Notes under the pieces: model-generated
What the model was told of the DNA's origin: nothing
What the model saw: only the letters and a program-made list of their open reading frames with translations
Databases searched by the model: none
Source: a virus
Taxonomy: Duplodnaviria > Heunggongvirae > Uroviricota > Caudoviricetes
Length of the DNA: 64,000 nucleotides
IMG/VR virus record: IMGVR_UViG_3300032046_000009
Strand: one strand, 5' to 3'
Translations under genes and position numbers: made by a program
Shown: positions 4,801-41,964 of the stretch, in pieces
Numbering within the stretch: position 1 is the stretch's first letter
Layout: each line of letters opens with the position of its first letter

Positions 4801-5871
4801 AACTGATTCCGCCTCAAATCGGGGTCCGATGATGTGTAGCTAAAGTGTATCTGTGTTCTACAACTAAAAGCAAACGTTTATATAGGACGCTGAGAACGTA
4901 GTATTTGGCGGCGGCGGTTCGCGTTAAGCGTATATTACATAGTTACGCATCTTATGAATTCAGTTGCACTAAAAGTTCAACTTTGGGTTGCCTCTCTCCC
5001 GTGTCTTGCGTCAAGCTACTAGCAGATACGCACAGCCCTATATAAACCTTCCTATTAAAGTGTAGAACAGAGATACAATAGGAACCTTTATATACCTCGC
5101 TATCCTCTTCTCAGCGCGCCTCAAATCGTGCTTCGTTTGGCTAATCCGCCTCGATTCAGCCCTAATTGAACATGGTTGTTCTAGGCAAACATTTATAAGC
5201 AACCATGCCTTTTATATGGTATGTATCGAAAGACGTGATTAAACCCAGAGTTGTACTTTATGGTTCGAATTTTGCTAAGTTTGCACATATATAAGCAACC
5301 GATAGGTTTAAATAGCTACTATATAAGGCTATCGGCGATACGCTTAAATAGGGGGTATATAAACGTTTTGGTCTAGCACAACTTCTAGTGTAACAAAAAG
5401 TGCAACTTTTGGGGTAACGCCTCGGCTAACAGGAAATTGTCCGTAGAATGCAACTGAGAATGTCACATAAGCGCACATAGGCGTTTTTTTGATTCCAATT
5501 ATTTTCTGGTCAGAGCTTCCACGCCGTCCGTTTTACCTGTCGGTTTGCCCTGCTTAATCACCTGATTAAAAGTTCTCCACAGTTCCGCGAGCCTTTCGGA
5601 TAATAAAGTCACCGTTTGCCAAAACGTCTTTTTTTCAGGGCTATTTTGGCATTCAGGGGAGCTAGAGGGGGGGGACTTGTTTATAATGGGGTATTAATCA
5701 GTTGTTTAAAATAGAGCTATAGCACTATGTCAGTCAGCACGTTGTCGTATGCCAACTATTCACTCCATAGACCCTTTACGTATGACAACCCTTTTCTTTA
5801 CGTATGTAAAGGTCATCAGTATCTTTTATCGAGCATTTCTTTTATCCATGTACTCCACTTTTTAGCTATTC

Positions 5872-10424: not shown

Positions 10425-10660
10425 GTGAAATTGACCTTCTCTTTTGTTGTTACTTTGCGTTTTAATAGCCACTTTTTGAAAAAAGACTCCCAAGTATTAT
10501 CTCTTCTATCGTGAAAGAAGTCATGTCGTTCTTGTGATTTTTCCCACAAAATACCATGTGAGTCGCAAAGATAAAGTTTTTCCTCAGTCTGTATATCGTG
10601 ATAATTTGCATAACCTTTTTTACCGCAAATACAACACTTTTTACGGTTTGAATTTATCAT
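10421..10660 (-). CDS. small Zn-ribbon protein (family B)
   Basis: JM both ends; CCICG..CDSHGILW; ends EKVNFT. Confidence 0.7.
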   Translation of the reverse strand: MINSNRKKCCICGKKGYANYHDIQTEEKLYLCDSHGILWEKSQERHDFFHDRRDNTWESFFKKWLLKRKVTTKEKVNFT

Positions 10661-10836
10661 GTGAACTCGACCTGTTCTTTTTCGTTAGCCTTTTTATAAC
10701 AAACATTTAGGGTATTGCCTTTGAATCCTCTTTCTATTGAACATGGTTTGCAATAACACACGTTCGCGCTCAATTTATGCAAACTATCACATATATTATT
10801 GCAAGTGAATCTCTTTCCACAAACTTTACAAATCAT
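10657..10836 (-). CDS. 59-aa 8-Cys protein (family A; not in track)
   Basis: hand translation MICKVCGKRFTCNNIC..CYCKPC..EQVEFT; ATGA overlaps. Confidence 0.6.
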   Translation of the reverse strand: MICKVCGKRFTCNNICDSLHKLSANVCYCKPCSIERGFKGNTLNVCYKKANEKEQVEFT

Positions 10837-11051
10837 GTGAACGTCACCGTTTCCCGTCCCTTTAGACGGTTAATAATCTCTCGCGCCTTCATTTTGTCTA
10901 AGAGTTCCATTATCTCTGGGTTATCGGAAAGTAACTTGTCTATGCGTTCGCCTTGCTCTCTGAGCCTGTCTAGCTCGTACATCATACAATTAAAGCATAA
11001 TTTCTCGTTAATTCGTTGTTTGAACTCGTTTCCACATTTAGAACAAATCAT
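10833..11051 (-). CDS. small Zn-ribbon protein (family B)
   Basis: track 10833..11087 trimmed to ATG in JM; ends ETVTFT. Confidence 0.65.
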   Translation of the reverse strand: MICSKCGNEFKQRINEKLCFNCMMYELDRLREQGERIDKLLSDNPEIMELLDKMKAREIINRLKGRETVTFT

Positions 11052-13593: not shown

Positions 13594-14283
13594 TCAGTCC
13601 TCTTCTTTCTTGTTCTTCTTTGCCTTTTCTGCCTTTTGGTCACAGAGAAAACTTTCGCATTGCCCGTTCAATTCGTCCAGCATATTCACGGTGTCTAACA
13701 TTTCGTTATATCGCTCGTGTCCCTTCATGCTTTCGATGTGTGAATTGCAAATCTCAACTGCTTTTCGACATCTCCAAAGTGTGCTCTGAGCCATGCGTTT
13801 GTCTTTTAACCCGTCCTCTGCCATCTTGACGTGTTCCATTATGAAGTTAAGAATGAACTCTGCTTTCTTGTCTTTGTAGTTTTCGAATCCTTCTGGGGTC
13901 GTGAAAATCGGAATGATTTTTATGCGTCTGTCGATGTCCTCAAATCCTTTGCTCTTTGCCTTTGCCTTTATCTCTTCAATTTCTGCAACAGCTAAGTCCA
14001 GCTTATCGCCGTCCAGAAGCCAACTGCTTTCGAGATGTTTCACAGCGTCCAGCTTGAATTTCAGAGCGAACACAATTGCGTTTCTGAAAATTCGCGCAAG
14101 TTTGTTGAATCGCGTGTTTGCGTCCCGTTGTTCTTTTGTCAACTTTTTCTTTTCCGCGTCCGTCAGATATTTCTCGCTGTAAAGGTCATACTCTATTGTA
14201 TAAATCGTTTCGCCGTGTAGTCCTAACGATTCAAGAGCCTTTTCGTCTATGATGAGTTTGTTTGTCGTTTTTTGGTCAGCCAT
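13594..14283 (-). CDS. hypothetical coiled-coil protein
   Basis: track 13594..14292; ATG after AAGTGATTAAA, i.e. palindrome 14285-14300 supplies the SD. Confidence 0.7.
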   Translation of the reverse strand: MADQKTTNKLIIDEKALESLGLHGETIYTIEYDLYSEKYLTDAEKKKLTKEQRDANTRFNKLARIFRNAIVFALKFKLDAVKHLESSWLLDGDKLDLAVAEIEEIKAKAKSKGFEDIDRRIKIIPIFTTPEGFENYKDKKAEFILNFIMEHVKMAEDGLKDKRMAQSTLWRCRKAVEICNSHIESMKGHERYNEMLDTVNMLDELNGQCESFLCDQKAEKAKKNKKEED

Positions 14284-14300: not shown

Positions 14301-14352
14301 CTATAAATACAGCGTCCTATATAAACGTTTGCTAGGAATCTCCATTCTCATT

Positions 14353-14706
14353 TTACTTAATCAGGTGATTAAACGATTTATGACTAATAATTCTGTGACA
14401 ATTCGCGCAGACTAATCGAACGTCCTCTGGAATTTTCTCTGCCCTTCTCCAACGAACCAATTCTTTTACTCTTCGATTCGCATTTTTTTGTTGTTCATTG
14501 CAACGAAGCCATGTATCGTTTCCTTCATGGTGAAAATCATAAACACAAGAATCAAAATGTTTATCGCAATGAAAACACTTATCGCCTAACTTTTGAATCG
14601 CCCAGAGTTTTAATTCTTCTAGCCATTTTTGGTGATATATCTTTTGGCATTCAGGACATCTTTGAGATTTTGTATTTGTTTCTTTTTCACAGTCTTGACA
14701 TTTCAT
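14353..14706 (-). CDS. HNH endonuclease
   Basis: CPEC..CFHC..HH..N..CANCH; class II TATA 14741-14750. Confidence 0.7.
   Translation of the reverse strand: MKCQDCEKETNTKSQRCPECQKIYHQKWLEELKLWAIQKLGDKCFHCDKHFDSCVYDFHHEGNDTWLRCNEQQKNANRRVKELVRWRRAEKIPEDVRLVCANCHRIISHKSFNHLIK
14357..14372. promoter_or_regulatory. 16-bp palindrome TTAATCAGGTGATTAA, promoter-distal copy
   Basis: read directly; flanks the same promoter about 72 bp away. Confidence 0.7.
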
Positions 14707-14762
14707 TTGAAACACTAATTAATAGATGGTTAATTAAGTATTTAAGTCTTATGGTTGATTAA

Positions 14763-15779: not shown

Positions 15780-16667
15780 TTAGGTATCCTCTTCTTTCTT
15801 TTTCAACTTTTCTACGTCTATCTCAGAGCTATCTTCGAAGAACGACCTAAATAAATTGCGCTCTTCTCTTGCGGTGTAAAGCGAACTTGCTATATCGATT
15901 ATGTCCTCTTCGGACATCTTCGCTTTGTAGAGTTTGCCGTAGTTTATTAGGTTGCCTGTCGTGAGGGGCGTTCTAAGTTTTCCGTTCTCGTATTCGGTTC
16001 GCGTCTTTTTGGCAATTTCTACGAACTTCGCAGAAAAGTCATAGTTTCCAGAGAACTTCTTTACCAATTCGCGTTCTTTCTGGGGGCTAAGGTATTCGAT
16101 TATCAGACCTTCAAATCGTCTAATGGTTGCAATGTTCTCGATGAATGTCCCAGAGTAACCCGATTTTTCTGAGGGGTTATAGCTGATAACGAGATAGTGC
16201 TGTGCTGTCCGTGTGAATTGCTTCTTGTATTCTGGAATATACACGTTTCCCCTAAAGTCTGCCAATGATTCCAGAAGTGAAATTATCGATGGTTCTGCAT
16301 AGTTGAACCCGTCTATGTAAAGCAGACCTTTCTCGCTGTTCAACCATTGAATTATGATTCCATCTCTTGTTTCTGTGCTTCCAGCTTTCAGAGTATCACA
16401 TGCCAGCAAATCCCACTTTGTCACGTCCCGTGTTAAGACAATTTCAAAAAGCGGAACCTCTAACAATTCAGCCAACTTGTGAACAAGAGTTGTTTTGCCC
16501 GTCCCCGTTTCGCCGACTAATCTAAGGTTGCCGACAATTTCAAGAATCGCTCTTGACTTTTCAATGTAGCCATGTTCGTCCACGAACTCGATGCCTTTGA
16601 CGTAGATGCCAGCACCTTCAAGTGCTGATTCGACCTTTGCATGAATCTTTTCAAATTCTGAGTTCAT
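15780..16667 (-). CDS. AAA+ ATPase, MoxR/CbbQ/NorQ-like
   Basis: Walker A GETGTGKTT; Walker B LLYIDGF; VWA partner in the adjacent unit. Confidence 0.8.
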   Translation of the reverse strand: MNSEFEKIHAKVESALEGAGIYVKGIEFVDEHGYIEKSRAILEIVGNLRLVGETGTGKTTLVHKLAELLEVPLFEIVLTRDVTKWDLLACDTLKAGSTETRDGIIIQWLNSEKGLLYIDGFNYAEPSIISLLESLADFRGNVYIPEYKKQFTRTAQHYLVISYNPSEKSGYSGTFIENIATIRRFEGLIIEYLSPQKERELVKKFSGNYDFSAKFVEIAKKTRTEYENGKLRTPLTTGNLINYGKLYKAKMSEEDIIDIASSLYTAREERNLFRSFFEDSSEIDVEKLKKKEEDT

Positions 16668-16805
16668 CTTTATTACCTTACGAGTATAGATGCCAGCGTC
16701 CTATTTAAATGTTTGCTTAGAAAGACCATGTTCATTTTAGTTAATCAACTGATTAAAATTTCTCAAAACCCCTCTCCCGCCCGAACCAAAGGTTGCACCA
16801 AAAGT

Positions 16806-17033
16806 TTAAGTAAATTGCACTTCTTCTCTGCCCGATTCTTGGCAATGAAATTGAACAACGTTAAAAGATTCATAAGTAGAGTCTGCCCCAGACAACTTTG
16901 AAAACTCTTCCGAAACTTTTTTTACACACTCAAGACAATAACAGTCATTCGGATTTTTAAGTCTATCACTTTTGCATTTTCCGTTGCAGAAAAAATTGTT
17001 CTTACAATGTGTGCAATGTCTTTTATATTTCAC
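16806..17033 (-). CDS. 8-Cys small protein (family A)
   Basis: CTHCKNNFFCNGKC..CYCLEC; ends EEVQFT then TAA. Confidence 0.65.
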   Translation of the reverse strand: MKYKRHCTHCKNNFFCNGKCKSDRLKNPNDCYCLECVKKVSEEFSKLSGADSTYESFNVVQFHCQESGREEVQFT

Positions 17034-17039
17034 AAGTTA

Positions 17040-17204
17040 TCACATTCGAGTTTTGTTAAGTTTACTTCGTTTCAATTCGCAATAAAGCATAGTCCACAAG
17101 AATTTTTTGGTTAGCTTTATCTTGTGTTTATTGTATTCGAAGAGGTCTTTAGAAATTTCGTCTGCCAATTTTCTACATTCTTTATCGTCAATTATGCAAA
17201 CCAT
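17040..17204 (-). CDS. 54-aa protein (not in track)
   Basis: ATG 6 nt after VWA gene stop; hand translation. Confidence 0.45.
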   Translation of the reverse strand: MVCIIDDKECRKLADEISKDLFEYNKHKIKLTKKFLWTMLYCELKRSKLNKTRM

Positions 17205-17210
17205 TTTTAC

Positions 17211-18938
17211 TCACTTCTGGGTTTCTACGTTTAGATACACGTTTAGGAATCTCTGAGGTAATTCGGATATTTGGTTTATCCGTGTTCGTGAGCACTTCAA
17301 GTTTTTCACTTTGCTTGCGAAGGTTTCTACATTCTCACAGTCACAGAAACCTATGAAGATACATTCAATTCCAGCTTTCGCATATTGGTCGATTAATTCC
17401 TCTGCTTTCGTTTCTTCATCACCACAGAAGCAGAAATCGGACGCAATGACCAGAATCTTTCGGCGTTCGCCTTTAATCGTATTGAACATTCTCAGGCTTG
17501 CCTCTAATCCAACGGAAACCTCAGTACCGCCAGCATTCACCGAAATAGCTCCAATTCTTGCCCGTGTGTTTTCGAAGGTTTCAAAGAAAGTCTTTACTTT
17601 CTGGGTATCTGCCCCAAAGCACCCAATACTGAACCCGTAATCGTCAACGTAATGTCCAAAGACCTCATTCAGTATAGTGGTTATCTTTTCAGCCTCTATT
17701 CGACTAACTGACCCTGAGAAATCGAACCAAAATTGAATTGCGACTTGTTCCTTCTCAAATTTTGTTGTTGTACGCAGATACACATTGCGAACGGTTCCCC
17801 TAAAGCTGTTTGTGTAGATGCGTGGAACAATTGGACTCATCATTTTTCCGCGTTTCTGGAAAATGTCCCGTTGAACTCTCGGTTTCATTTTCTTCTTTAG
17901 TTGATTCAATAGCTCGGAAATTTCAGGCTTGCATTCGTCCAGAAGTTTCGAATACGCCTCAAAATCTGGGTCTGGGGCTGGAATCTCTTCGCCTGTGCCT
18001 TCGCCAGCACCCGAACCTTTCTGCAAATCTTCTAGGTGTTTCTTCTTGTCCTCTTCTGCCTTTTCTTGCTCTTCCTCTTTTTCTAGTAATTGCCTAAGTC
18101 TGTCCGATATTTTGCCCTTTACGTTGCCCCCTCTTCTAGAAACGACATATTCCTTTGTCGTATAGTCAGCGTTCAAGTGTTTAGCTACCAATTCATAAAT
18201 CGTTTGGCAAGACCTTATTATGTCGAGTTTGACACGTTGATATTTCGTCCCCTCTAGCACTTTAAGGGCTGTTTCACAGTCCTTTCTAGCATCTGGGCTT
18301 AGTTTGTTCCATAACTCTGTGCATTTAGCCTCATATAGACCTTCATTGCACAAAATTGCAACCATGTAAACCCCGTCTTGTTGTCCAGCTTGAATTGTCA
18401 TGTTTGGAATTTCGTTTTCGCCTAAGTTTTCGCCCTTCGGTAAGATGGTTGACATGGCTATTTGTGGCTTTTCAATTGTGTTGTCTATCATGTCTTTTAG
18501 TATCAAATTCGCCAAAAGTAGCCTCTTGCCGACATCAAACCTGTATCTGAGAATTATGAAATGATTCACGCGCTTATCTTCAACTATGTTGCAAACTTCG
18601 TGAGCCAGCTTGTAAAATCCTCTCTGTCGTTTGATTTTTGTTGTCCAATTGTTGAAAAATTCCCAATTCGGTTTTGTTAGAATCAGATGACCGCACTCGT
18701 GAACCATGTCACCGTCTAGGATTTTTCGGAATAGACGGGGCGATGTTTTCACGAAATCGGGATAACTCTGTAAACTCAAAGAAATCTCAAAGTTTTCCAT
18801 ATTGAAAGCAGAAGTTGGTTGTTCTGGAATATACTTGATACGAATCCGTTTGTCCTTCGTAATTGCTATGGCAAGATTCCTCATCTCGTCAAGTATCTTA
18901 GAGAAGTTGTTCGTCTTTGCTTGTTTCTGCTTTGTCAT
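17211..18938 (-). CDS. VWA-domain protein with N-terminal HExxH (CbbO/NorD-like)
   Basis: HECGH; MIDAS DFSGS; VIASDF; acidic linker. Confidence 0.75.
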   Translation of the reverse strand: MTKQKQAKTNNFSKILDEMRNLAIAITKDKRIRIKYIPEQPTSAFNMENFEISLSLQSYPDFVKTSPRLFRKILDGDMVHECGHLILTKPNWEFFNNWTTKIKRQRGFYKLAHEVCNIVEDKRVNHFIILRYRFDVGKRLLLANLILKDMIDNTIEKPQIAMSTILPKGENLGENEIPNMTIQAGQQDGVYMVAILCNEGLYEAKCTELWNKLSPDARKDCETALKVLEGTKYQRVKLDIIRSCQTIYELVAKHLNADYTTKEYVVSRRGGNVKGKISDRLRQLLEKEEEQEKAEEDKKKHLEDLQKGSGAGEGTGEEIPAPDPDFEAYSKLLDECKPEISELLNQLKKKMKPRVQRDIFQKRGKMMSPIVPRIYTNSFRGTVRNVYLRTTTKFEKEQVAIQFWFDFSGSVSRIEAEKITTILNEVFGHYVDDYGFSIGCFGADTQKVKTFFETFENTRARIGAISVNAGGTEVSVGLEASLRMFNTIKGERRKILVIASDFCFCGDEETKAEELIDQYAKAGIECIFIGFCDCENVETFASKVKNLKCSRTRINQISELPQRFLNVYLNVETQK

Positions 18939-19005
18939 TTTTCCACACCTTTATAGATGCCAGCGTAGCTTATAAAGGTTTCCCCAGAACGACCATGCTC
19001 GTTTT
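18939..19005 (-). promoter_or_regulatory. class I promoter cassette, palindrome 19008-19023 upstream
   Basis: aaaggtgtggaaaaatg leader; gcttataaaggtttccccagaacgaccatgctcg. Confidence 0.6.
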
Positions 19006-19104
19006 AGTTAATCAACTGTTTAAAAAAGTGAAAGGTTGCACTCTGAGTGACTTAAATGTTGATGGTCAAAGGCATGGTCGAAACTTTTATTACACCTAGA
19101 GTTT

Positions 19105-19400
19105 AACTGTGCCCCGAAGTAGTGTCCCCCAAAGGACTGTGGATAATGCCCGACTCTCAATTTCATCCCCTGAGCGTTCTCTTCGGGGCAAATCGTTCAA
19201 TAATTTCGAACATATATAAACGATATTGAACGAGTGTCCTTCTTTTGTTCGAAGAGGCTCAAATAATGCTTTTCGACCAATGGAAACGATGTTAAAAAGA
19301 CCATCAGTCCTATGGAATCTGGGTTTCGTTCGGGTTCGTTTTGGAAAATCAGTCTTGGAAAACGGCAACGCGCAGACTTCGAATGTAAAGGCTTCGAGTT
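19105..19400. ncRNA. candidate noncoding RNA locus, paralog of 4505-4800
   Basis: 10-bp long-range pair gccccgaag/cttcggggc (19112-19193); no credible ORF. Confidence 0.4.
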
Positions 19401-19544
19401 TTGAAATTAATCATTTGATTAAATAAGCTCAACAGTTCGCATCGTGCCTCGGCGTGAAGGGGCGTGAAGCAGTTAATCACCTGATTAATTAAATGCGCCT
19501 CGCACCGCGTCCCGTTTGGCAAAAGCGACCATTGTGAAAGCTGT

Positions 19545-19620
19545 GCTGGAAATTGAGCATGGCGTTTTTAGGGAAAGATTTATAAGCTACCGTGTTGTAG
19601 TATTCACAAAGAGGCACAAA
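19545..19620 (+). promoter_or_regulatory. full class I promoter cassette on plus strand
   Basis: ttgagcatggcgtttttagggaaagatttataagctaccg read on plus strand. Confidence 0.55.
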
Positions 19621-19621
19621 T

Positions 19622-19753
19622 ATGTTTCCGTTTGATACTCTGGGTTTCATAATAGGTTTAATTGTTCTTGCAAAAGTAGTTAAAACTTTCAGGCGACCCG
19701 TTGGTTGTCCCGACCCGTCAGAACTTGAGGAAGCACTAGAGGACGAAGGCTAG
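19622..19753 (+). CDS. 43-aa membrane protein (not in track)
   Basis: ATG after AGAGGCAC; one TM; hairpin + T-run 19825-19845 downstream. Confidence 0.45.
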   Translation: MFPFDTLGFIIGLIVLAKVVKTFRRPVGCPDPSELEEALEDEG

Positions 19754-20028
19754 GTCACACTTTCGGTGTAACTTTCCGTCCCCTCGAAAATTAAATTTTT
19801 AGTAGAATCCTGAGTGTCACATAACGCACATAGGCGTTTTTTCTTCCCAATTAGATTTCGGTTTATGGTGAAGCCCTCTGCCAGCCCCCAACGTATTCCC
19901 CAGACTTTTAATCAACTGATTAAAAAAGCACCGACTTCAGGCTTCAGTTCCCATTGGCTTCGCCCTAGCATCCAGAACGTCTTTTTCCCTAGTCTATTTA
20001 CCTGTCAAATGTAGCTAGGGGTAGGGGA

Positions 20029-20154
20029 CTAATCGAACCGAACTTTCTCTTTTTGTTTATACAATAGTTTTAGACATTCGGGACAAAAAAGTGCACGACT
20101 TCCAGCGAAGGGTTTGCAGAACCAAAGTTTTCCACATCTAAAACATTCTATCAT
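20029..20154 (-). CDS. 41-aa Zn-ribbon protein (not in track), last cassette of array E
   Basis: CFRCG..CPEC; ends EKVRFD + TAG; abuts G-rich hub. Confidence 0.5.
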   Translation of the reverse strand: MIECFRCGKLWFCKPFAGSRALFCPECLKLLYKQKEKVRFD

Positions 20155-20165
20155 TTTCTCTTCTG

Positions 20166-20396
20166 TCAATCGAAACTCACCTTTTCTGGAATCCGAAACA
20201 TAAGTTCAGAAATTCTAATATCGACTTTTCTCTTCTTTATCAGACAAACCATTTGCATTGGAAAATTTCTCTCTTTTTTATGTAGTTCCGCAGACCTAGT
20301 TAATCGGTTGCTCAATGCTTGTAAAGTATGAATTTCACTTTTCAATTCGACAAGTGGTTTCTTTTTCCATTGTGCAAGCGGAGATTTATGGGTCAT
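20166..20396 (-). CDS. basic small protein
   Basis: ATG in JM 20393; ends EKVSFD. Confidence 0.65.
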   Translation of the reverse strand: MTHKSPLAQWKKKPLVELKSEIHTLQALSNRLTRSAELHKKERNFPMQMVCLIKKRKVDIRISELMFRIPEKVSFD

Positions 20397-20608
20397 GTGA
20401 ATGACACCGTTTCTTTAGCTTTACAGAATCGTGAACAAACTTCTTTCAAATCTTTTGGGTATTCCCCAACTTCGGATTTCTCAAACTTTCGCGCACAATC
20501 GGAGCAATAACAACCCCCGTATTGCACTTTGCCATGACTAAGACCTAATCTAGCGCACCCATTATTGCACACGAAATGTTTTCCGCATTTTCCACAAATT
20601 TTGTTCAT
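20393..20608 (-). CDS. 8-Cys small protein (family A)
   Basis: CGKCGKHFVCNNGC..CYCSDC; JM both ends. Confidence 0.7.
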   Translation of the reverse strand: MNKICGKCGKHFVCNNGCARLGLSHGKVQYGGCYCSDCARKFEKSEVGEYPKDLKEVCSRFCKAKETVSFT

Positions 20609-20883
20609 GTGAATCGAACAACCTCTCTCATATTAAACCAGAGATTCCAGCAATATTCCCATCTTCCAAAATGTTTCCCATGAAAGATGCCCCATTCGTC
20701 ATAACATCCTCTACAAATCCAGATGTTATGTTTAAATCCGCTATTTACTAAAAAGATTAAAACCGCATCTATCGTTTTGGTATCTTCGTCTTTATGTTCA
20801 AAATTATTAGAATTGCTTACGTGGAACCATTTCTTTTTTGGAAGAGTTACAGTTATTGGTTTTCCACATTTCGAACATTTCAA
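20605..20883 (-). CDS. small Zn-ribbon protein (family B)
   Basis: CSKCG..CRGCYDEW; ends EVVRFT. Confidence 0.7.
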   Translation of the reverse strand: MKCSKCGKPITVTLPKKKWFHVSNSNNFEHKDEDTKTIDAVLIFLVNSGFKHNIWICRGCYDEWGIFHGKHFGRWEYCWNLWFNMREVVRFT

Positions 20884-21089
20884 GTGAACTCTACCTTCTC
20901 TTTGAGTTTGGCTAAATATTCTGGAATATGGTCTGAAATTATTATGTCATTCGGATATTTTTCATGACTCCACTTGACAAAAACCATCCAACATTTTATA
21001 CAAAGAAACGCCCATTTTCCGTTATTCTTTTCTCCGCACACGGGACAAAAATCTGGAAGTTCTTCTTTATCAACGAGTTTGTTTGTCAA
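20880..21089 (-). CDS. small Zn-ribbon protein (family B)
   Basis: track trimmed to TTG in JM 21086; CPVCG..CIKCW. Confidence 0.65.
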   Translation of the reverse strand: MTNKLVDKEELPDFCPVCGEKNNGKWAFLCIKCWMVFVKWSHEKYPNDIIISDHIPEYLAKLKEKVEFT

Positions 21090-21283
21090 GTGAATAACAC
21101 CTTCTCTTTTTCGGGTATTCCCCCATAGCACAATTCAAGTGACCCTATATCTTCAGTAAATTTTGTTCCCCATTTTTTGATTGAACATTCTTTACAATAG
21201 CATAATGTAGCGTCTGGGGAACATTCTTCGTCACAATTACAGAAGAACTTTTTTCCGCAAACTTGGCACGTCATTTCTTTCAA
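21086..21283 (-). CDS. 8-Cys small protein (family A)
   Basis: TTG in JM; CQVCGKKFFCNC..CYCKEC. Confidence 0.7.
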   Translation of the reverse strand: MKEMTCQVCGKKFFCNCDEECSPDATLCYCKECSIKKWGTKFTEDIGSLELCYGGIPEKEKVLFT

Positions 21284-21423
21284 GTGAATTGAACCTCTTC
21301 TTTTTGTTTTCTCACTTCACAAATCGAACGTTGTCTGCAACTCTTTTGACAAAAATCGTCATAATGATTTATCTCCCCGACATCGCAGTAAATTATTTTT
21401 CCAGCGCAGTATATTTCCGTCAT
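21280..21423 (-). CDS. 47-aa Cys-rich protein (not in track)
   Basis: hand translation; ends EEVQFT; JM both ends. Confidence 0.55.
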   Translation of the reverse strand: MTEIYCAGKIIYCDVGEINHYDDFCQKSCRQRSICEVRKQKEEVQFT

Positions 21424-21629
21424 GTGAATTGCACCACTTCTTTTAAGTCAACCTCTTCGCAACCTTCTGGACGACCCGACCCATGATTGCATTTTTCACA
21501 CCAACAAACGCTATATTCGTGAGGACATTTTCCCGTTATTGAAGATTTAGTCCATCCTCTCCCTTTACAAGTGAAAGTTCTACCACAATTACCGCACTTC
21601 TTTGTTAGAGCTAATGGATATTTCTTCAT
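21420..21629 (-). CDS. 8-Cys small protein (family A)
   Basis: CGNCGRTFTCKG..CWCEKC. Confidence 0.7.
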   Translation of the reverse strand: MKKYPLALTKKCGNCGRTFTCKGRGWTKSSITGKCPHEYSVCWCEKCNHGSGRPEGCEEVDLKEVVQFT

Positions 21630-21841: not shown

Positions 21842-21939
21842 GTGAATTGCACTCTCACGGGTTCTTTCTCAATTTCAAAACGGTCATACCATTTTTTGAG
21901 ACTTCTATATTTTGTAAAAATATGTTGTAGATGGTTCAT
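21838..21939 (-). CDS. 33-aa protein
   Basis: track 21838..22041 trimmed to ATG in JM 21936. Confidence 0.45.
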   Translation of the reverse strand: MNHLQHIFTKYRSLKKWYDRFEIEKEPVRVQFT

Positions 21940-22151
21940 GTAAATTGTACAACCTCTTGATAACGATATTTGTTTCGCTCCATTCGTTCTTCGCAAGAAC
22001 GACCATTTTCCCTTACTGTTTTTGCGTGGCATAATCCACATTCACAACCATTACTATGTTTGCTCTTTTCAAGTTTTCCACAATCATTATCACAGTAAAA
22101 AATTCGTCCACACGTTCTACAAGTTCTTTTGAAAAGTTCGGGGACTATCAT
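21936..22151 (-). CDS. 8-Cys small protein (family A)
   Basis: CRTCGRIFYCDNDC..CECGLC. Confidence 0.7.
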   Translation of the reverse strand: MIVPELFKRTCRTCGRIFYCDNDCGKLEKSKHSNGCECGLCHAKTVRENGRSCEERMERNKYRYQEVVQFT

Positions 22152-22528
22152 GTAAACTCAACCTTTTCTTTTGAATGTAAACGTACAAGTTCGCTATATC
22201 CCTCATTTATTTCTAGTGTCATATCTAAAATTTCTGAATATGCCAAGTCGGTTGTGACAGTCCCGTAACAAGTTCCACTAGCAATTACCTTATCGCCCTT
22301 CCAAATCTCATAGTCAAATTGGTAGCTATCATTTTCTTTATCTATCTCTTTGAAAGCTCCAATAGGAAAAATCAGTTCAAACCCCTTATCCCATAATTTC
22401 TCCCGTTTCAAAATGATAAGGATATTTTTCTCTATCGTGTCATCTGAATATTCTTCCATAATATCTGTTAGTTCGGTTTCAAACTCAGGTTCTTTGCGTA
22501 AAGTCCAATTCGAAAAAGTGCCACTCAA
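22148..22528 (-). CDS. acidic hypothetical protein
   Basis: 126 aa; TTG in JM 22525; ends EKVEFT. Confidence 0.65.
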   Translation of the reverse strand: MSGTFSNWTLRKEPEFETELTDIMEEYSDDTIEKNILIILKREKLWDKGFELIFPIGAFKEIDKENDSYQFDYEIWKGDKVIASGTCYGTVTTDLAYSEILDMTLEINEGYSELVRLHSKEKVEFT

Positions 22529-24544: not shown

Positions 24545-24605
24545 TTTTATCAACAAGAGTATATTAGCATCGTCCTATATAAACCTTAGCCCAGAACTAC
24601 CATAC

Positions 24606-24893
24606 TCAAGTGAACTGAACTACTTCTTTTATAGCGTTCCTTATATCGCCTAGTGAAGTAATTTTAATATCCAAAATCATCTCATCTGCCATCTGTTGAA
24701 AGTGTTCTATCTCGCTTTCGTGTATCTCTTCAAATGAACATTTAGATATATGTTCTCCGTCATCGTAGTCATCTTCAAAAAACATAGAGCAAAGAGCACA
24801 TTCCTCTGAACCCCCACTTATACCCCCTCTAAATTTTACTGCAAGAGGGTCATTAGAATACGCAAGCCATCTTAAACTAACTTTACGTGTCAT
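24606..24893 (-). CDS. acidic small protein, last cassette of array G
   Basis: ends EVVQFT; its TTGA continues as TTGAGTATGG promoter element. Confidence 0.65.
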   Translation of the reverse strand: MTRKVSLRWLAYSNDPLAVKFRGGISGGSEECALCSMFFEDDYDDGEHISKCSFEEIHESEIEHFQQMADEMILDIKITSLGDIRNAIKEVVQFT

Positions 24894-25931: not shown

Positions 25932-26251
25932 CTGAATTGCACCTTAACCTTTGGTTCTTTACCGTCTTTAGTGAATGGTTTATTAGGGTCAATTATGTTT
26001 ATCGTAAATTGTTCTGAACTATTGTGGTATTCCCAATAAAAACAACCGTCAGCTAAATCTTTGAGAATATAGTCTATACAATCATCGTTACAAACTACGT
26101 CCTCAAAATCTGTGCCATTATATTCTTTCTTAACTTTCTCTTTCACTTGTTCAAGAGTCAAATCTAGCAAACCGCGTTTTCTCAGTTGTTCGACTAACTC
26201 TTCCGCGTCCCCAACTTGAAAATCATCTAAGATTTTTAATCCGACAATCAT
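25928..26251 (-). CDS. acidic hypothetical protein
   Basis: 107 aa; ends VKVQFS. Confidence 0.7.
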   Translation of the reverse strand: MIVGLKILDDFQVGDAEELVEQLRKRGLLDLTLEQVKEKVKKEYNGTDFEDVVCNDDCIDYILKDLADGCFYWEYHNSSEQFTINIIDPNKPFTKDGKEPKVKVQFS

Positions 26252-26469
26252 GTGAATTTCACCATTTCTGGTTCTACGTCCTCAACTTTTCTGTAACCGC
26301 ATTTTTTAATTCCTTTCGCGGTATCTAAGCGTTGTTTTCTCGTACATTCTTCACAATAACATTCATGTATCTTTTTGTGAAATTGTGAAACTCGAATGCC
26401 GACAGAACACATATCATTACCATTACAGTAAAATTCTTTTTTGCAATTCGCACATCTGACCTTAATCAT
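26248..26469 (-). CDS. 8-Cys small protein (family A)
   Basis: CANCKKEFYCNG..CYCEEC; ends EMVKFT. Confidence 0.7.
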   Translation of the reverse strand: MIKVRCANCKKEFYCNGNDMCSVGIRVSQFHKKIHECYCEECTRKQRLDTAKGIKKCGYRKVEDVEPEMVKFT

Positions 26470-26611
26470 TCTGTTGTTCTCCCTTTCAATGCTAAAACTA
26501 TTAATGGGTCATTGAGAAGGAAAAAAAGGAAAAGAAGAAATTCAGAATGGGTGTAATAGGCAATAATATTGCCCGTAACCAAAACCCATTTCTGATAAAC
26601 TTTCCAGAAAT

Positions 26612-27469
26612 TCATAGGAAAACTCTCTCGGCATGAATCCTTGTGTTAATGGTTTTGTCGTTAAATTCATAAGGTTTACCGTTCTGTTCGAACTTTGGAA
26701 ACGAAATTTTCATAGAGTTTTCGCCCTCTCTGTCAACCCAGAGAAATTCGCCTTTTCGCAAACTCATAACTACATTTGCTATTCTCTGTCCCTTCTCTGA
26801 ACCAAATGCCCTTTTCAATTTCGAGATGTCGTTATCGCCAGCGAGAGAACCTATCAGTAGATATTTTGTGCGCTCAACTATCTGAGTAGAAATGTCACTC
26901 AGACGTTGACCTATTCCTATGAAGAATTGACTATAATTTCTTGATTCGCTCCAAATCTTCAACCAGAAGTCAGATTTCTTGTAAGAACCAAACAAGTTCT
27001 GAATCTCTTCCAGAACGTAGATTCTCTGGATTTCTGCCGTCCCGTTGTTCTTGTTCATTGATTCTCTCTGAATGTAATAGTCTTGTCCGACTAAGTTTTC
27101 GACTAGGCTAACATTTTTTGCAGTTGATAAGAATCCCAAATCAAGCAAAACTGTTTTCTCGTCCTCTGGAATGCTCGGTTTCTTTGTTATGTCAACGTAG
27201 GGTATTTCATCAAATGTGAGTTTCCATGTATTAGCACTATCGCCTATTCGAATTACTATTTTTCCCTCTTTATATCTTTGTGAGTTTCGAATGTATCTTA
27301 CTATGTGCTTCACGGCGTTTGTCTTGCCCGTTCCCCCTAGCCCAATAACAAGCAATCTTCCGTTATCGACTAGGTTCTTCACTATCATTTCAAGTATTGC
27401 ATCGCTCATTTCTTGAACCTTATCGGGTTCAGATATTTCAACCGCGATTTTATTTTCTGTTTCGGTCAT
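26612..27469 (-). CDS. P-loop NTPase (FtsK/HerA/Zot-like)
   Basis: Walker A GLGGTGKTN; Walker B-like IYVLEE; ATG after AGGTGA. Confidence 0.65.
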   Translation of the reverse strand: MTETENKIAVEISEPDKVQEMSDAILEMIVKNLVDNGRLLVIGLGGTGKTNAVKHIVRYIRNSQRYKEGKIVIRIGDSANTWKLTFDEIPYVDITKKPSIPEDEKTVLLDLGFLSTAKNVSLVENLVGQDYYIQRESMNKNNGTAEIQRIYVLEEIQNLFGSYKKSDFWLKIWSESRNYSQFFIGIGQRLSDISTQIVERTKYLLIGSLAGDNDISKLKRAFGSEKGQRIANVVMSLRKGEFLWVDREGENSMKISFPKFEQNGKPYEFNDKTINTRIHAERVFL

Positions 27470-27478
27470 TCCATTCAC

Positions 27479-27736: not shown

Positions 27737-27799
27737 CTAATCTACCCTGAATTATTAATAGCATCGACCCTTATAAACCTTTGCCCTAAAACCCCATAC

Positions 27800-28090
27800 T
27801 CAAGTGAAGGACACCTTTTCTGCCCCATTCTTTGCCTTTTCCTCTTCTTGGCGTTTGTCATCTAAATCTCCTAGATAACAGTCAATAGTATCCCAAGTTA
27901 CACCTATTGTTGCGTCATGTCTATGTTCCATTATGTCAATAATTTCCTCTGCTTCATTTTTGGTAATTTTCATACCCCTGTCTTTTGCCCGTCCCAGAAC
28001 GTCCTCAACATTCCAAATTATTAGACAGATATGTTCGTTTGGCTTGTTATAATTCTGAATGTGCTTTATTGCATCTTCTCTTGTTGTCAT
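27800..28090 (-). CDS. acidic small protein, monocistronic cassette
   Basis: own promoter (TATA 28115-28122) yet ends EKVSFT. Confidence 0.65.
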   Translation of the reverse strand: MTTREDAIKHIQNYNKPNEHICLIIWNVEDVLGRAKDRGMKITKNEAEEIIDIMEHRHDATIGVTWDTIDCYLGDLDDKRQEEEKAKNGAEKVSFT

Positions 28091-28434: not shown

Positions 28435-29115
28435 CTATTGTTTGGTATTTTTGTTTTTGGTTTCTTTGACGCAAACACACTTTCGATTGTTGAGCAATGC
28501 CCCAATTATCAGTCCTAGTATGAAAGTCAGTATGATTATCAAGAGCCAACATGGGTTACAGTCTTTCTTGTTGTCGGTGATATAGACGTAGAATGGCTTG
28601 TCAACGTAAACAACTCTGTTCACGTAAAGGACTTTCTCGATGTACTTGATGACTTCTTTTGGCACTTCGATATAGACCGTGTTGTTGCAGTATTTGATTA
28701 TTTCGACTTCCTTGATGACTTCGACAGGCACTTCCTTAATGACTTCTTTGATGACCTCTATTGGCACTTCAACGTAAACGACTGTTTCAACAACTTTGTC
28801 AACATAGACAATCTTTTCAACTATTCTGTCAATGTAAACAGTCTTTTCCACTATTCTGTCTTTGTAAACGATTTTCTCAACAACTCTGTCAACGTACACT
28901 ATTCTGTCCACGTAAACAGGAACTTCAACCGTTTGGTTGACGTAAACAATTCTGTCCACGTAGATTATTTTGGTCTTGTTGTTACAAGAGTTGCCATCGT
29001 CACCGTCATTGCAATTTGGCTTATCATTGTCGTCAGAAGCAAATGCTGGAACTATCACTATTGGTATCACTAACGCAATCAAAAGCGCGATTATTATCAA
29101 ATTTCTTTTTTTCAT
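28435..29115 (-). CDS. repeat-rich type I membrane protein
   Basis: N-terminal signal/TM, C-terminal TM; VYVDRIVEKIVY-type repeats, about 33-bp DNA period. Confidence 0.7.
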   Translation of the reverse strand: MKKRNLIIIALLIALVIPIVIVPAFASDDNDKPNCNDGDDGNSCNNKTKIIYVDRIVYVNQTVEVPVYVDRIVYVDRVVEKIVYKDRIVEKTVYIDRIVEKIVYVDKVVETVVYVEVPIEVIKEVIKEVPVEVIKEVEIIKYCNNTVYIEVPKEVIKYIEKVLYVNRVVYVDKPFYVYITDNKKDCNPCWLLIIILTFILGLIIGALLNNRKCVCVKETKNKNTKQ

Positions 29116-29202: not shown

Positions 29203-30099
29203 TTATGGAGTTGTCGAATTGGTTGGCAGTTGGAAGAACGGAATTATACCGCTTCCGTAATAGGTCGGCAGTTTGCCGTCCCATTGTTGCAGATAGAGAT
29301 ATTGAAGATATTCTGGGCTAACATTTAGTTTCTGTGCGATTAATTGCAATGCTTCCGCGTCTGCATTGGCTTTTGCCAAAGTTGCGTATGCGTATGCGTC
29401 TGCTTCAATTCTTGTCATGTTTGCTTGTGCTTGTTGCTTGAGAATTTCCTGTTCCTGTTGATAGCGAACTATTTCTAAGTTGTTCTTTTCTGTGATTGCT
29501 TGCTGTTCGGCTGTTACTTTGTTCTCAATGGCTTCGTTGAACTTTGTTGAGAATGCGAAGTTCTCTAGCTGAACGTCAACGACTGTTATGTGATAATCCT
29601 TTATTCGTGAGCGAAGTGTGTCTAAAAAGAGAACTTTTACTGCATCTCGTTTTTGGAGAAGTTCTTCTGCTTTGAAAGTAGAGATTGAACCTTTTAGACT
29701 TTCTTGCATGTTGTTGATTATAACCCGTGATTCCCAATCTGTGCGGAGTGTTCTGTAAATATCCTCTGCAAATCCAGACTCAATTCGATAGTTTATTGCA
29801 ACTGTGGTTGTGACTTCTTGCATGTCGTTAGTTCCACAAGACATGTTTGCTAGTTCTGCTTTATGAATCTGCAAGTCAATGTTCACTATGTCTTGTCCAA
29901 ACCAAATGTTGACCCAATGAATGCCTTCACCCGTTGTGCCTGTAATTTGCCCGAATTGAGTAGAAACGCCTATGTAACCGCTTGGAACAGTCCTGATTCC
30001 TAGAACGCCTGTCAACACTAGAAATGCGGAAATGATGACAACAATAGCAATTCGAATAATGCTCCATTCGCCGTTTTTATTCTTTAGTATATTTCTCAT
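29203..30099 (-). CDS. SPFH/band-7 (prohibitin/HflC-like) membrane protein
   Basis: N-terminal TM, SPFH core, Ala/Gln-rich coiled tail. Confidence 0.8.
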   Translation of the reverse strand: MRNILKNKNGEWSIIRIAIVVIISAFLVLTGVLGIRTVPSGYIGVSTQFGQITGTTGEGIHWVNIWFGQDIVNIDLQIHKAELANMSCGTNDMQEVTTTVAINYRIESGFAEDIYRTLRTDWESRVIINNMQESLKGSISTFKAEELLQKRDAVKVLFLDTLRSRIKDYHITVVDVQLENFAFSTKFNEAIENKVTAEQQAITEKNNLEIVRYQQEQEILKQQAQANMTRIEADAYAYATLAKANADAEALQLIAQKLNVSPEYLQYLYLQQWDGKLPTYYGSGIIPFFQLPTNSTTP

Positions 30100-32811: not shown

Positions 32812-33756
32812 TCACTTGATTAATTGAAGTATCCCATCTTTACTTATTTGGAGTTTGTGGTATCGCATATCAGCCTTGCCTAGCCGACACTTGAGAACCC
32901 GTATGAAGTGTAGAAGTTCGCCTTGTTTTGCTTCGGTGTCGATTTTCATTTGAGCGTCCCAACTTGAGAGTTTCTTAAAGTTGATTTCAAACTCCACGTC
33001 TAGCAAATGGCTTAATGCAATGCCCCCTGCAAGTCCGTGTTGGTCAACTGATTCCTCATTTGCTTTCTGTGAGATAAAGATTCCTGTCACGCCTTTCTTC
33101 TGATTATAGCGGACAAATTCGCCTAAGTGGAATTTCAGTCCAGCACGATAATCATCTAGGAGAGTTAACGAATCGACAATTAGAAACTCAGCCTTTTCCT
33201 GTTCTACGAGTACGCGATAAGTTGAAACAAGTGTATTCCATTCTCTAAGTTCGCCGTGTGCAATAACGTCCAGCACAAAAAGATTCTGCTTTATGTTTTC
33301 CCAACTCAGTCCCAGAAAAGTTGCCATCTGTTTCATTCGACTCTGCAAATCAAATCTGTCGTTGTCAGCTTGGAAAATATCTTCGCTAGTTGTGAAAATA
33401 ACTTTGTTTCCGTCACTAGCTAATCTGAGCGCAACTTCCTGAGCGATTAAAGACTTGCCGACATCTGGGTTTCCGACCACACCTATCTGTGCAACTTTCG
33501 GAATGCCCCCCATAGGTTTATCGTCTTTGTCTAAGAAGAAATTGTCTAGGAAGGTTCTGCTTTTGAATAATGCTATTTGTGTCTTTATCTTTGCATCGTT
33601 CGGTCTAGTGGTCAGAAAGTCTTTAGTAAGTTGAATTGGTTTGTTAAAACTCTCTAGCGTTCCATCATTCTGAGCCTTAGCGATTATCTCTTCCATTCTC
33701 TCCATTACAGATTTAGCTCTTTCCTCTAGTTCTTTTTTACTTTGTTCTTCGCTCAT
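32812..33756 (-). CDS. RecA-superfamily ATPase (KaiC/RadB/DnaB-C-like)
   Basis: Walker A GNPDVGKS; Walker B FLIVDSLT. Confidence 0.7.
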   Translation of the reverse strand: MSEEQSKKELEERAKSVMERMEEIIAKAQNDGTLESFNKPIQLTKDFLTTRPNDAKIKTQIALFKSRTFLDNFFLDKDDKPMGGIPKVAQIGVVGNPDVGKSLIAQEVALRLASDGNKVIFTTSEDIFQADNDRFDLQSRMKQMATFLGLSWENIKQNLFVLDVIAHGELREWNTLVSTYRVLVEQEKAEFLIVDSLTLLDDYRAGLKFHLGEFVRYNQKKGVTGIFISQKANEESVDQHGLAGGIALSHLLDVEFEINFKKLSSWDAQMKIDTEAKQGELLHFIRVLKCRLGKADMRYHKLQISKDGILQLIK

Positions 33757-40614: not shown

Positions 40615-41088
40615 TCAGATGGCTTTTTTCCACCCCCTCGGCTCCATGCCCCAAACTTTTAATCAGTTGATTAATAACTACCGAAAGGTTTATATGGTGC
40701 AACTCGTATTATATAAGGAAGAGTTGAACTTTCAATGACACAGAAAGTTACACTAACCGTAACCTCGAAAGTGACCCAGACGGAAACACGGAAAAGGGTA
40801 ACGCAGAAAAACCTTTAGGAAAAAACCATCGGTCACACTTTTTGAAACCACATACCCACACATAGGCGGCGCGCAGGCGAAAATTTGATTTTGGTCGGCG
40901 AACTTTGTGATTTCTGTTATGATTGTTATTTTGGTATTATTTTTATTTCCTATTTCCTGAGCATTTCGATTTAGATTTACTAAGGATTCGAGAAAAGAAA
41001 ATAACTGAAAACGTCTTTTTTTCAGGGAGTTTTGAACGTCTAGGGGAGCTAGGGGTAGGGGACTATCCCAGAGAAAGTTGGTATATGC

Positions 41089-41788: not shown

Positions 41789-41964
41789 GTGAATTGCACT
41801 ACCTCTCTCGGTATTATCACTTTTAAATCCCCACGTTTTATTTCCCTTTCAATTGGAATTTTGATACTTTTACCACCATGAGTGCAAAAAATTTCTCCAT
41901 GTTTGTTAGTCCGTAATATGCATCCTTTGGTAAGTGTGCAACAAGTACATTTATATTCAGTCAA
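41785..41964 (-). CDS. 59-aa Cys-rich protein (not in track)
   Basis: TTG in JM 41961; ends EVVQFT. Confidence 0.55.
   Translation of the reverse strand: MTEYKCTCCTLTKGCILRTNKHGEIFCTHGGKSIKIPIEREIKRGDLKVIIPREVVQFT

What the first reader, a model, noticed from the sequence alone, without database searches (positions are those of the whole stretch)
15780..18938. MoxR/CbbQ-like AAA+ ATPase next to an HExxH-VWA protein on a virus-like element
The two genes are adjacent but in separate units, each with its own class I promoter and an upstream palindrome. Two micro-genes lie between them. The ATPase has GETGTGKTT and LLYIDGF. The partner combines an N-terminal HECGH with a C-terminal MIDAS VWA domain (DFSGS). 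MoxR-VWA pairs such as CbbQ/CbbO and NorQ/NorD are established chaperone or remodeller pairs, and similar pairs have been linked to conflict systems. Here the context is an element packed with small putative effectors, and the role is unknown.
Basis: partly seen in the sequence, partly recalled or inferred. Interest (0 to 1): 0.55.

Follow-up and report, generated by a model that had tools for sequence, protein, structure and literature searches.

The report
Viral CobS/CobT-like ATPase, zincin-VWA module
These are real genes: a divergent copy of the AAA+ ATPase plus metallopeptidase-VWA pair already known from many tailed viruses (often labelled CobS/CobT), here on an uncultured, probably archaeal virus-like element, with a third conserved partner gene and an ATPase lacking its usual catalytic glutamate.

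Summary
On the minus strand, 15780-16667 encodes a 295-aa AAA_5 ATPase. Its closest solved relatives are midasin, CbbQ, NorQ and CobS. 17211-18938 encodes a 575-aa protein with an invariant HExxH...NxxED zincin-like N-domain and a complete MIDAS VWA domain. That VWA domain is structurally closest to NorD and midasin MIDAS.

The pair is not new in kind. The same architecture is described in jumbo phages (MoxR with metallopeptidase-vWA) and as the viral "cobST" cluster of bacterial and archaeal tailed viruses. Foldseek links the N-domain to halovirus and phage "CobT" proteins.

Four things are new here:
- A third gene, X (13594-14283, about 229 aa, no known family), is linked to the pair in all 12 lineages inspected.
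- The Walker B catalytic Glu is replaced by Gly (DG) in 113 of 120 homologues, while the other nucleotide-site residues stay invariant.
- Inteins sit in the two most conserved partner motifs in relatives.
- X, the AAA gene and the VWA gene each carry the same 74-nt palindrome plus BRE/TATA-like promoter.

It fails every tested cobaltochelatase feature and matches no defence-system model. The most likely role is a nucleotide-gated chaperone-adaptor with a peptidase, acting on an unknown client. I rate it a new variant of a known kind, of moderate interest.

The parts
17211..18938 (-). Gene for the 575-aa zincin-VWA protein (viral 'CobT-like' partner)
18153..18938 (-). N-terminal zincin-like domain (residues 1-262), with HECGH at 18687-18701 and NIVED at 18576-18590
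17952..18005 (-). Conserved linear motif GEGTGEEIPAPDPDFEAY in a low-confidence linker
   Evidence: G316, I319, P322 and Y329 are invariant. The motif is recognisable in a distant phage partner, L043. It is an intein insertion site in P0005, P0020 and P0059.
17214..17756 (-). VWA domain with complete MIDAS: DFSGS at 17709-17723, T472 at 17523-17525, S500-D501 at 17436-17441 (D501 is the MIDAS residue)
15780..16667 (-). Gene for the 295-aa AAA_5 (CbbQ/NorQ/CobS-type) ATPase. Walker A at 16488-16514. Walker B LLYIDGF at 16305-16325, with Gly in place of the catalytic Glu. Sensor 1 N164, R183/R184 and R223 are present.
   Evidence: Pfam AAA_5 1e-13 and phrog_249 9e-28. PDB hits. Walker B is DG in 113 of 120 homologues, while distant phage CobS-likes have DE.
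13594..14283 (-). Gene X: a third conserved module gene, 229 aa from ATG 14283 (232 aa from GTG 14292), of unknown family
   Evidence: Present next to the pair in all 12 lineages inspected, in three gene orders. 94 homologues sharing contigs with the pair. No Pfam, PHROG or PDB match.
18952..19025 (-). Promoter-like region upstream of the VWA gene (palindrome plus BRE/TATA-like box)
   Evidence: Member of the repeat finder family D10.
16685..16758 (-). Promoter-like region upstream of the AAA gene
   Evidence: D10 reference copy. ACGCTGGCATCTATA occurs exactly only here and upstream of the VWA gene.
14301..14374 (-). Promoter-like region upstream of gene X
   Evidence: Third and last member of 74-nt repeat family D10. 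Sequence shown.
16806..17033 (-). 75-aa Cys-rich micro-ORF between the two genes. Not part of the module.
   Evidence: Paralogues elsewhere in the window and in related elements. It ends with the element-wide junction motif. In L007 the gap holds a LAGLIDADG gene instead.
17040..17204 (-). 54-aa ORF directly after the VWA stop codon. Doubtful gene.
   Evidence: No homologue outside identical contigs. Not called on public contigs.

Best explanation
**Shown.** This is a divergent member of the virus-borne MoxR-class AAA+ and zincin-VWA pair. That pair is often annotated CobS/CobT, 'porphyrin biosynthesis' or 'peptidase'. Here it is extended to a conserved three-gene module: AAA, X and zincin-VWA. 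It sits on an uncultured element of about 150 kb with archaeal-type promoters.

**Inferred mechanism**, by analogy with NorQ/NorD, CbbQ/CbbO, midasin and ATV p618/p892:
- The ATPase forms a ring that docks the partner.
- The partner's MIDAS site captures an acidic residue of a client protein.
- The tethered HExxH/Glu zincin domain then binds or cleaves that client.
- Because the Walker B Glu is Gly while Walker A, sensor 1 and the arginines are invariant, nucleotide binding probably gates assembly or release. Rapid hydrolysis is unlikely to drive unfolding.
- X is either the dedicated client or a third subunit.
- Context in this window and in cultured relatives points to an intracellular role during replication or host takeover rather than to cobalamin synthesis. 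In cultured relatives the neighbours are replication and nucleotide-metabolism genes.
For: **Identity.**
- AAA_5 and phrog_249 hits. PDB relatives are midasin, CbbQ, NorQ and CobS.
- The VWA fold is closest to NorD in the NorQ-NorD complex and to MDN1/Rea1 MIDAS.
- The MIDAS and HExxH...NxxED residues are invariant.
- The N-domain matches zincins weakly. It matches viral CobT/VWFA proteins of HHTV-2, HCTV-2 and phage Cantare with probability 1.0.
- Cultured phage partners have the same layout: Ochrobactrum phage OC 'CobT' has HESAH-71, NVCED-107 and DYSGS-481. So do phage metagenome loci L043, L063 and L037.

**Published descriptions.** PMC7824862 section 3.4.5, PMC8651126, PMC7911831 and PMC4124505.

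**Module.** All three genes are present in all 12 lineages inspected. They share a 74-nt promoter family, D10.

**Importance.** Canonical inteins sit in the NxxED and GTGxEIP motifs in relatives.

**Walker B.** DG in 113 of 120 homologues.

**Context.** In Cantare the pair sits among dNMP kinase, ThyX and MazG genes. In phage OC it sits beside the sliding clamp and clamp loader genes.
Against: - No biochemical data exist for any member of this clade.
- No complex model could be run.
- The client is unknown and X has no recognisable fold or family.
- Five of 120 homologues keep DE, so hydrolysis may still matter. A Gly at this position does not prove loss of activity.
- That the host is archaeal is inferred only from BRE/TATA-like boxes, inteins and one MAG label.
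Confidence: 0.55

Rival explanations
1. Virion-assembly chaperone with a processing protease. The pair folds or assembles and trims structural proteins, as shown for ATV p618/p892 in tail development and proposed for group 2.2 jumbo phages.
For: This function is published for the same architecture (PMC7824862; PMC4124505). The element has many unannotated genes that could be structural.
Against: No structural genes lie near the module in the window. In cultured phages and in Hardycor1 the pair sits in replication, nucleotide-metabolism or accessory regions.
Confidence: 0.2
2. Anti-defence or host-takeover effector. The MIDAS-zincin partner captures and cleaves a host protein such as an immune or stress factor, under control of the AAA ring.
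For: The conserved peptidase motif is coupled to a protein-binding MIDAS. The module sits among many small accessory genes. MoxR-vWA modules occur in conflict systems (PMC7159879, listed).
Against: No PADLOC match. bpMoxR scored below its cut-off. A very wide spread across unrelated tailed viruses, and strong conservation with inteins, fit a core function better than an arms-race effector.
Confidence: 0.15
3. True cobaltochelatase CobS/CobT subunits that hijack a host CobN to raise cobalamin synthesis.
For: This is the proposal for viral cobST clusters in PMC8651126. The ATPase has weak CobS similarity (TIGR01650 1e-5; PDB CobS 1.9e-5). One distant phage partner hits CobT_C.
Against: TIGR01650 scores 24.9 bits against a cut-off of 558.55. 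There is no CobT N-domain or CobT_C hit for the window protein. No CobN-sized ORF exists, since the largest ORF in 64 kb is this 575-aa protein. The ATPase is closer to CbbQ and NorQ than to CobS. The catalytic Glu is missing. The invariant HExxH zincin-like domain is unexplained by a chelatase role.
Confidence: 0.05
4. Decaying ATPase. The AAA gene is a catalytically dead remnant kept only as a scaffold, or is on its way to loss.
For: Walker B is DG in most members, NN or NG in two, and GE plus Walker A GKD in the L010 lineage.
Against: The ATPase is the best conserved of the three proteins (63% mean column identity). Walker A, sensor 1, R183/R184 and R223 are invariant in the 24 aligned sequences.
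Confidence: 0.05

Closest known systems
Viral 'cobST' cluster of tailed viruses (T4-like Kyanoviridae, haloarchaeal Druskaviridae/Saparoviridae, Hardycor1, HCTV-2, HHTV-2, phage Cantare)
   Same: An AAA_5 ATPase lies next to a 550-800-aa protein with an N-terminal HExxH...NxxED domain and a C-terminal MIDAS VWA. Both sit on virus genomes in accessory or replication regions.
   Different: Only about 25% identity for the ATPase, and no BLAST-level match for the partner. Walker B is DG here but DE in all distant phage copies that could be aligned, apart from EE in L063. Gene X was not detected in any of the distant phage loci.
MoxR AAA+ and metallopeptidase-vWA pair of group 2.2 jumbo phages (Iyer et al. 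2021, PMC7824862)
   Same: The same two-gene architecture with the peptidase fused to the N-terminus of vWA.
   Different: That pair was proposed to act in virion assembly. Here there is no structural context, an altered Walker B and a third gene.
ATV p618 (MoxR) / p892 (VWA) of Acidianus two-tailed virus
   Same: An archaeal-virus AAA+/VWA pair whose proteins interact. The VWA protein stimulates the ATPase.
   Different: p618 is 618 aa with extra domains. p892 is reported without a peptidase domain. Sequence relationship was not tested here.
NorQ/NorD and CbbQ/CbbO
   Different: NorD and CbbO lack the zincin-like N-domain found here (from general knowledge, not tested). Their clients are cNOR and Rubisco. 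The CbbQ_C match here is below threshold (16.6 against 20.6 bits).
Cellular aerobic cobaltochelatase CobN-CobS-CobT
   Same: An AAA+ protein plus a VWA protein, and the source of the annotation name.
   Different: Fails the CobS equivalog model. No CobT or CobT_C domain in the window protein. No CobN.
Midasin/Rea1 (AAA_5 ring with a MIDAS domain)
   Different: Midasin is a single giant eukaryotic polypeptide with six fused AAA modules. It acts in ribosome biogenesis.

Membership tests
MoxR-group AAA+ (AAA_5; CbbQ/GvpN/NorQ-type) | Single AAA+ module matching AAA_5 above the curated threshold | tested here: met
   PF07728 scores 51.8 bits against a cut-off of 22. AAA_3 (MoxR proper/RavA type) scores only 20.4 against 27.
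MoxR-group AAA+ (AAA_5; CbbQ/GvpN/NorQ-type) | Genomic pairing with a VWA/MIDAS protein | tested here: met
   Linked in all 12 lineages inspected.
MoxR-group AAA+ (AAA_5; CbbQ/GvpN/NorQ-type) | Canonical Walker B hhhhDE | tested here: not met
   LLYIDG. DG in 113 of 120 homologues, and the Gly aligns to the Glu of midasin and phage CobS-like DE motifs.
MoxR-group AAA+ (AAA_5; CbbQ/GvpN/NorQ-type) | CbbQ/NirQ/NorQ C-terminal domain | tested here: inconclusive
   PF08406 scores 16.6 bits against a cut-off of 20.6. Some homologues carry a precomputed PF08406 hit.
Viral CobT-like zincin-VWA proteins | N-terminal HExxH...NxxED helical domain | tested here: met
   Invariant motifs. The same motifs occur in L043, L063, L037 and phage OC CobT. 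Foldseek probability 1.0 to viral CobT/VWFA proteins.
Viral CobT-like zincin-VWA proteins | C-terminal VWA with DxSxS...T...D MIDAS | tested here: met
   Homologues pass PF00092. The window protein itself gives no Pfam hit.
Zincin (gluzincin-type) metallopeptidase | HExxH on the active-site helix, a Glu ligand on the next helix, and the zincin fold | tested here: inconclusive
Aerobic cobaltochelatase CobS/CobT/CobN | CobS equivalog score | tested here: not met
   TIGR01650 scores 24.9 bits against a cut-off of 558.55.
Aerobic cobaltochelatase CobS/CobT/CobN | CobT N-terminal and CobT_C domains in the partner | tested here: not met
   No Pfam hit at E up to 0.1 for the window protein.
Aerobic cobaltochelatase CobS/CobT/CobN | CobN subunit available | tested here: not met
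   The largest ORF in the 64-kb window is the 575-aa VWA protein itself. Host CobN is not testable because the host is unknown.
vWA-MoxR conflict systems / known anti-phage defence systems | Match to bpMoxR or to PADLOC models | tested here: not met
   PF20030 scores 17.2 bits against a cut-off of 27. PADLOC gives only P-loop-level hits at E of 5e-4 or weaker.

The most novel reading that the evidence does not exclude
The clade may have turned a MoxR-type motor into a three-component, nucleotide-gated switch. On this reading the AAA ring binds ATP but cannot hydrolyse it on its own, because Walker B is DG. Hydrolysis or release would be triggered only when the zincin-VWA partner or the clade-specific protein X engages. 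That would be analogous to Torsin needing a cofactor to complete its active site. X would be the dedicated client or activator whose processing licenses a step of the viral cycle.
Probability: 0.15. Interest if true: 0.6.

Novelty: new variant of a known kind. Interest (0 to 1): 0.38.

Why it matters
The AAA+/zincin-VWA pair is among the most widespread unexplained gene pairs in tailed viruses of bacteria and archaea. It is routinely mislabelled as cobalamin or porphyrin biosynthesis.

This clade gives three handles on its real function:
- an obligate third partner, X;
- a natural Walker B Glu-to-Gly change with a minority of DE relatives, which makes a ready-made mutant series;
- intein insertion sites that mark the functionally critical motifs.

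It also warns against reading viral "CobS/CobT" genes as auxiliary metabolic genes in metagenome surveys.

Tried and rejected
- **GTDB genome scan with the ATPase profile.** No relative found, so there is no host or provirus assignment.
- **GenBank phages.** No DNA match, no protein match for the partner, and only about 25% identity hits for the ATPase.
- **RNA and promoter scans.** Rfam and tRNA scans of the window were empty. Sigma-70 promoters and intrinsic terminators were at or below chance. There are no Borg-like tandem repeats.
- **PADLOC.** Nothing significant.
- **Profile searches against PDB.** The N-domain gave no hit even at E of 10. X gave only a chance ParM hit.
- **Family searches for X.** Pfam and PHROG scans of 24 X homologues gave scattered noise only.
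- **Glu supplied in trans.** If the missing Glu came from the partner or X, lineages that keep DE might have lost a conserved acidic residue there. The partners in L072 and L073 show no such change. That is no support, though with only two sequences the power is low.
- **Virus hallmark genes.** Scans of ORFs of 150 aa or more in the window found only a weak terminase-like PHROG hit for 26612-27478. Genes called on the related contigs that extend beyond window position 1 (L074, L075) carry no precomputed Pfam hit.
- **Structure limits.** The afdb50 fold library was unavailable. Both structure-prediction jobs went to the partner, so there is no model for the ATPase, X or the complex.
Full report
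**Observation**

The two ORFs exist on the minus strand exactly as described: 15780-16667 (295 aa) and 17211-18938 (575 aa). Translation of the motif coordinates confirms GETGTGKTT, LLYIDGF, HECGH and DFSGS. They are genuine genes. Searches of public metagenome proteins found 185 homologues of the ATPase and 77 of the partner, all unannotated or labelled "MoxR-like ATPase". An identical ATPase lies on contigs of 86 and 152 kb.

The genes are 543 nt apart. That gap holds a 54-aa ORF and a 75-aa ORF.
- The 75-aa ORF belongs to a multi-copy Cys-rich family spread over the window and over related elements.
- The 54-aa ORF has no homologue.
- In a relative (L007) the same gap holds a free-standing LAGLIDADG gene instead.

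So the micro-ORFs are not part of the system.

**Promoters**

Both genes are preceded by about 75 nt of near-identical sequence. The elements, in order, are:
- the palindrome TTAATCAGTTGATTAA;
- CATGGnnnTTCT;
- AAAC-TTTAWAWA, which reads like an archaeal BRE/TATA (my inference);
- GACGCTGGCATCTATA, followed by a short leader.

The palindrome occurs 25 times in the window against 0.4 expected. The promoter core occurs at least 22 times (family D1). The 74-nt extended version forms a family of exactly three copies (D10). Those copies lie upstream of the VWA gene, the AAA gene and a third gene at 13594-14283. No sigma-70 signal exceeds chance.

**The ATPase**

- It passes Pfam AAA_5 (51.8 bits against 22) but not AAA_3.
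- It matches the phage family phrog_249, "porphyrin biosynthesis", at 9e-28.
- It scores far below the CobS equivalog cut-off: 24.9 against 558.55 bits.
- Its solved relatives are midasin AAA modules (2e-20), CbbQ (3.7e-12), NorQ (6.7e-10) and CobS (1.9e-5).

Walker A, sensor 1 N164, R183/R184 and R223 are invariant in 24 diverse homologues.

The Walker B motif is LLYIDG. The Gly aligns with the catalytic Glu of midasin and of every distant phage CobS-like protein that could be aligned; L063 reads EE rather than DE but keeps the Glu. Among 120 homologues the counts are DG 113, DE 5, NN 1 and NG 1. One distant lineage (L010) has GE plus a GKD Walker A. The clade has therefore given up the standard hydrolytic residue while keeping the nucleotide pocket under strong selection.

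**The partner protein**

In 20 sequences down to 29% identity, these residues are invariant:
- H80, E81, H84;
- N117, E120, D121, R123;
- G316, I319, P322, Y329;
- the MIDAS residues D406, S408, S410 and D501. T472 is at least 90% conserved.

VWA domain:
- The family profile hits integrin I-domains (1.5e-5).

N-domain:
- It has no Pfam or PDB sequence match.
- Modelled alone it reaches pLDDT 84.8.
- Against viral models it matches, with probability 1.0, the N-terminal parts of proteins named CobT or VWFA-domain protein. These come from uncultured Caudovirales, Haloarcula viruses HHTV-2 and HCTV-2, and Brevibacterium phage Cantare.
- A profile of the N-domain finds only 95 cluster representatives among 1.84 billion proteins. 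The distant ones again combine it with VWA or CobT_C.

**Relatives and linkage**

I inspected twelve distinct lineages: the window, L007, L010, L012, L013, L014, L069, L070, L071, L072, L073, plus identical copies. All hold the ATPase, the partner and the third gene X. Three gene orders occur:
- VWA-AAA-...-X (window, L007);
- AAA-X-VWA (most lineages);
- X-AAA-VWA as a tight operon (L071).

X has 94 homologues that share contigs with the pair. It has no detectable family or solved relative. X was not detected in any of the distant phage CobS-like loci.

In relatives the partner carries canonical inteins at two sites:
- HEI^C...N^CNIVEDKR;
- GEG^S...HN^TGEEIPAP.

These are the two most conserved non-MIDAS motifs. 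Inteins characteristically sit in critical sites of important genes (established knowledge), which argues for their importance.

**Comparison with what is known**

The architecture is already published.
- Iyer et al. describe a MoxR AAA+ and vWA pair with an N-terminal metallopeptidase on the vWA protein in group 2.2 jumbo phages. They propose virion assembly with processing (PMC7824862).
- Liu et al. describe a cobST cluster widespread in bacterial and archaeal tailed viruses. They note that cobT is usually annotated as a peptidase, and they propose hijacking of host CobN (PMC8651126).
- Hardycor1 and other haloviruses carry the pair in the replication/accessory module, amid CxxC proteins (PMC7911831).
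- ATV p618/p892 is the one experimentally studied viral case (PMC4124505).

Cultured examples checked here show the same layout:
- Ochrobactrum phage OC "CobT" has HESAH-71, NVCED-107 and DYSGS-481. It lies next to a CobS-like ATPase and the clamp and clamp-loader genes.
- Cantare gp55/gp56 lie among dNMP kinase, ThyX and MazG.

**Mechanism**

Shown: the domain composition, the conserved sites, the three-gene linkage and the shared promoters.

Inferred: an AAA ring docks the partner. The MIDAS site captures an acidic residue of a client. The zincin domain binds or cleaves that client. Nucleotide binding, rather than fast hydrolysis, gates the cycle. X is the client or a third subunit.

The cobaltochelatase reading fails every membership feature that could be tested. 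The defence-system reading has no support. A test for a trans-supplied glutamate, by comparing DE and DG lineages, found nothing.

**Verdict**

This is a real and well-conserved system. It is a new variant of a known viral AAA+/zincin-VWA pair, distinguished by gene X and the DG Walker B. The element is uncultured:
- no GTDB relative was found;
- no GenBank phage shows more than about 25% identity to the ATPase, and none matches the partner or the DNA;
- three relatives are in IMG/VR.

It is probably archaeal. Interest is moderate.

Noticed in passing
window 9700-56000, minus strand (e.g. 20029-21629, 41549-45906): 81 of 287 minus-strand ORFs of at least 35 aa end in ...(K/R)E(K/V)VxFT*. The DNA is GARAAGGTNNNNTTYAC(A/T)TGA, and in most of them the next ORF starts at the ATG or TTG overlapping the stop. 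This looks like a stereotyped Shine-Dalgarno-plus-start junction for translational coupling in long arrays of tiny genes. About half of the starts are TTG. Only 6 plus-strand ORFs show the same ending.
   Followed up: partly
window, 25 sites (e.g. 1680, 9268/9333, 14286/14358, 19408/19474/19909, 36218/36269, 56712): The palindrome TAATCANNTGATTA occurs 25 times against 0.4 expected, often in pairs 50-70 nt apart. The same palindrome is abundant in related elements: L014 has 19, L070 has 13 and L007 has 5. It is probably the operator of an element-encoded regulator.
   Followed up: partly
window, at least 22 sites (repeat finder D1/D2, e.g. 24562-24614, 27756-27808, 60817-60869): A shared promoter core, read on the minus strand as GAGCATGGnnnTTCTAGGnAAAGGTTTATAWAGGACG, resembles an archaeal BRE/TATA.
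   Followed up: partly
window 10660-10869, 20396-20632, 21939-22157, 26251-26508, 42499-42747, 55483-55680 and others: A multi-copy family of small Cys-rich (CxxC...CxC..C) proteins, also present in related elements.
   Followed up: partly
window 19023-20028: About 1 kb upstream of the VWA promoter has no convincing minus-strand ORF, higher G+C and three palindromes. It holds one copy of a 57-nt repeat ending in GCTAGGGGTAGGGGACT. The three copies are at 5621-5677, 19974-20030 and 41008-41064 (D16). A 43-aa ORF at 19622-19753 on the plus strand, which looks to me like a membrane protein, was called on the public contig. This may be a regulatory or non-coding RNA region. Rfam found nothing.
   Followed up: no
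L007 8820-9347; proteins P0011, P0018, P0019, P0005, P0020, P0059: Mobile elements target this module. There are two different inteins in the partner gene. A free-standing LAGLIDADG gene lies between the VWA and AAA genes in L007. In the window an HNH endonuclease gene (14353-14715, phrog_2255 1e-8) lies between the AAA gene and X.
   Followed up: partly
L010 4030-4989: The ATPase of the most distant lineage has Walker A GETGCGKD and Walker B LLHLGE. These are different degenerate substitutions from the DG of the main clade.
   Followed up: no
window 28435-29115: A 226-aa ORF contains a 30-nt tandem repeat (28769-28896, 4.3 copies; family D7). It has a marginal Pfam IMCp hit and lies next to an SPFH/Band 7 gene at 29203-30099 (2e-29).
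   Followed up: no
window 32812-33756, 53407-54525, 49519-50175, 58745-59680, 63122-63691, 61814-62686: Other recognisable genes of the element are a KaiC/RecA-like ATPase, an RNA ligase, three family-2 glycosyltransferases and a trypsin-like peptidase. The KaiC-like ATPase and the RNA ligase also lie near the module in L071.
   Followed up: no
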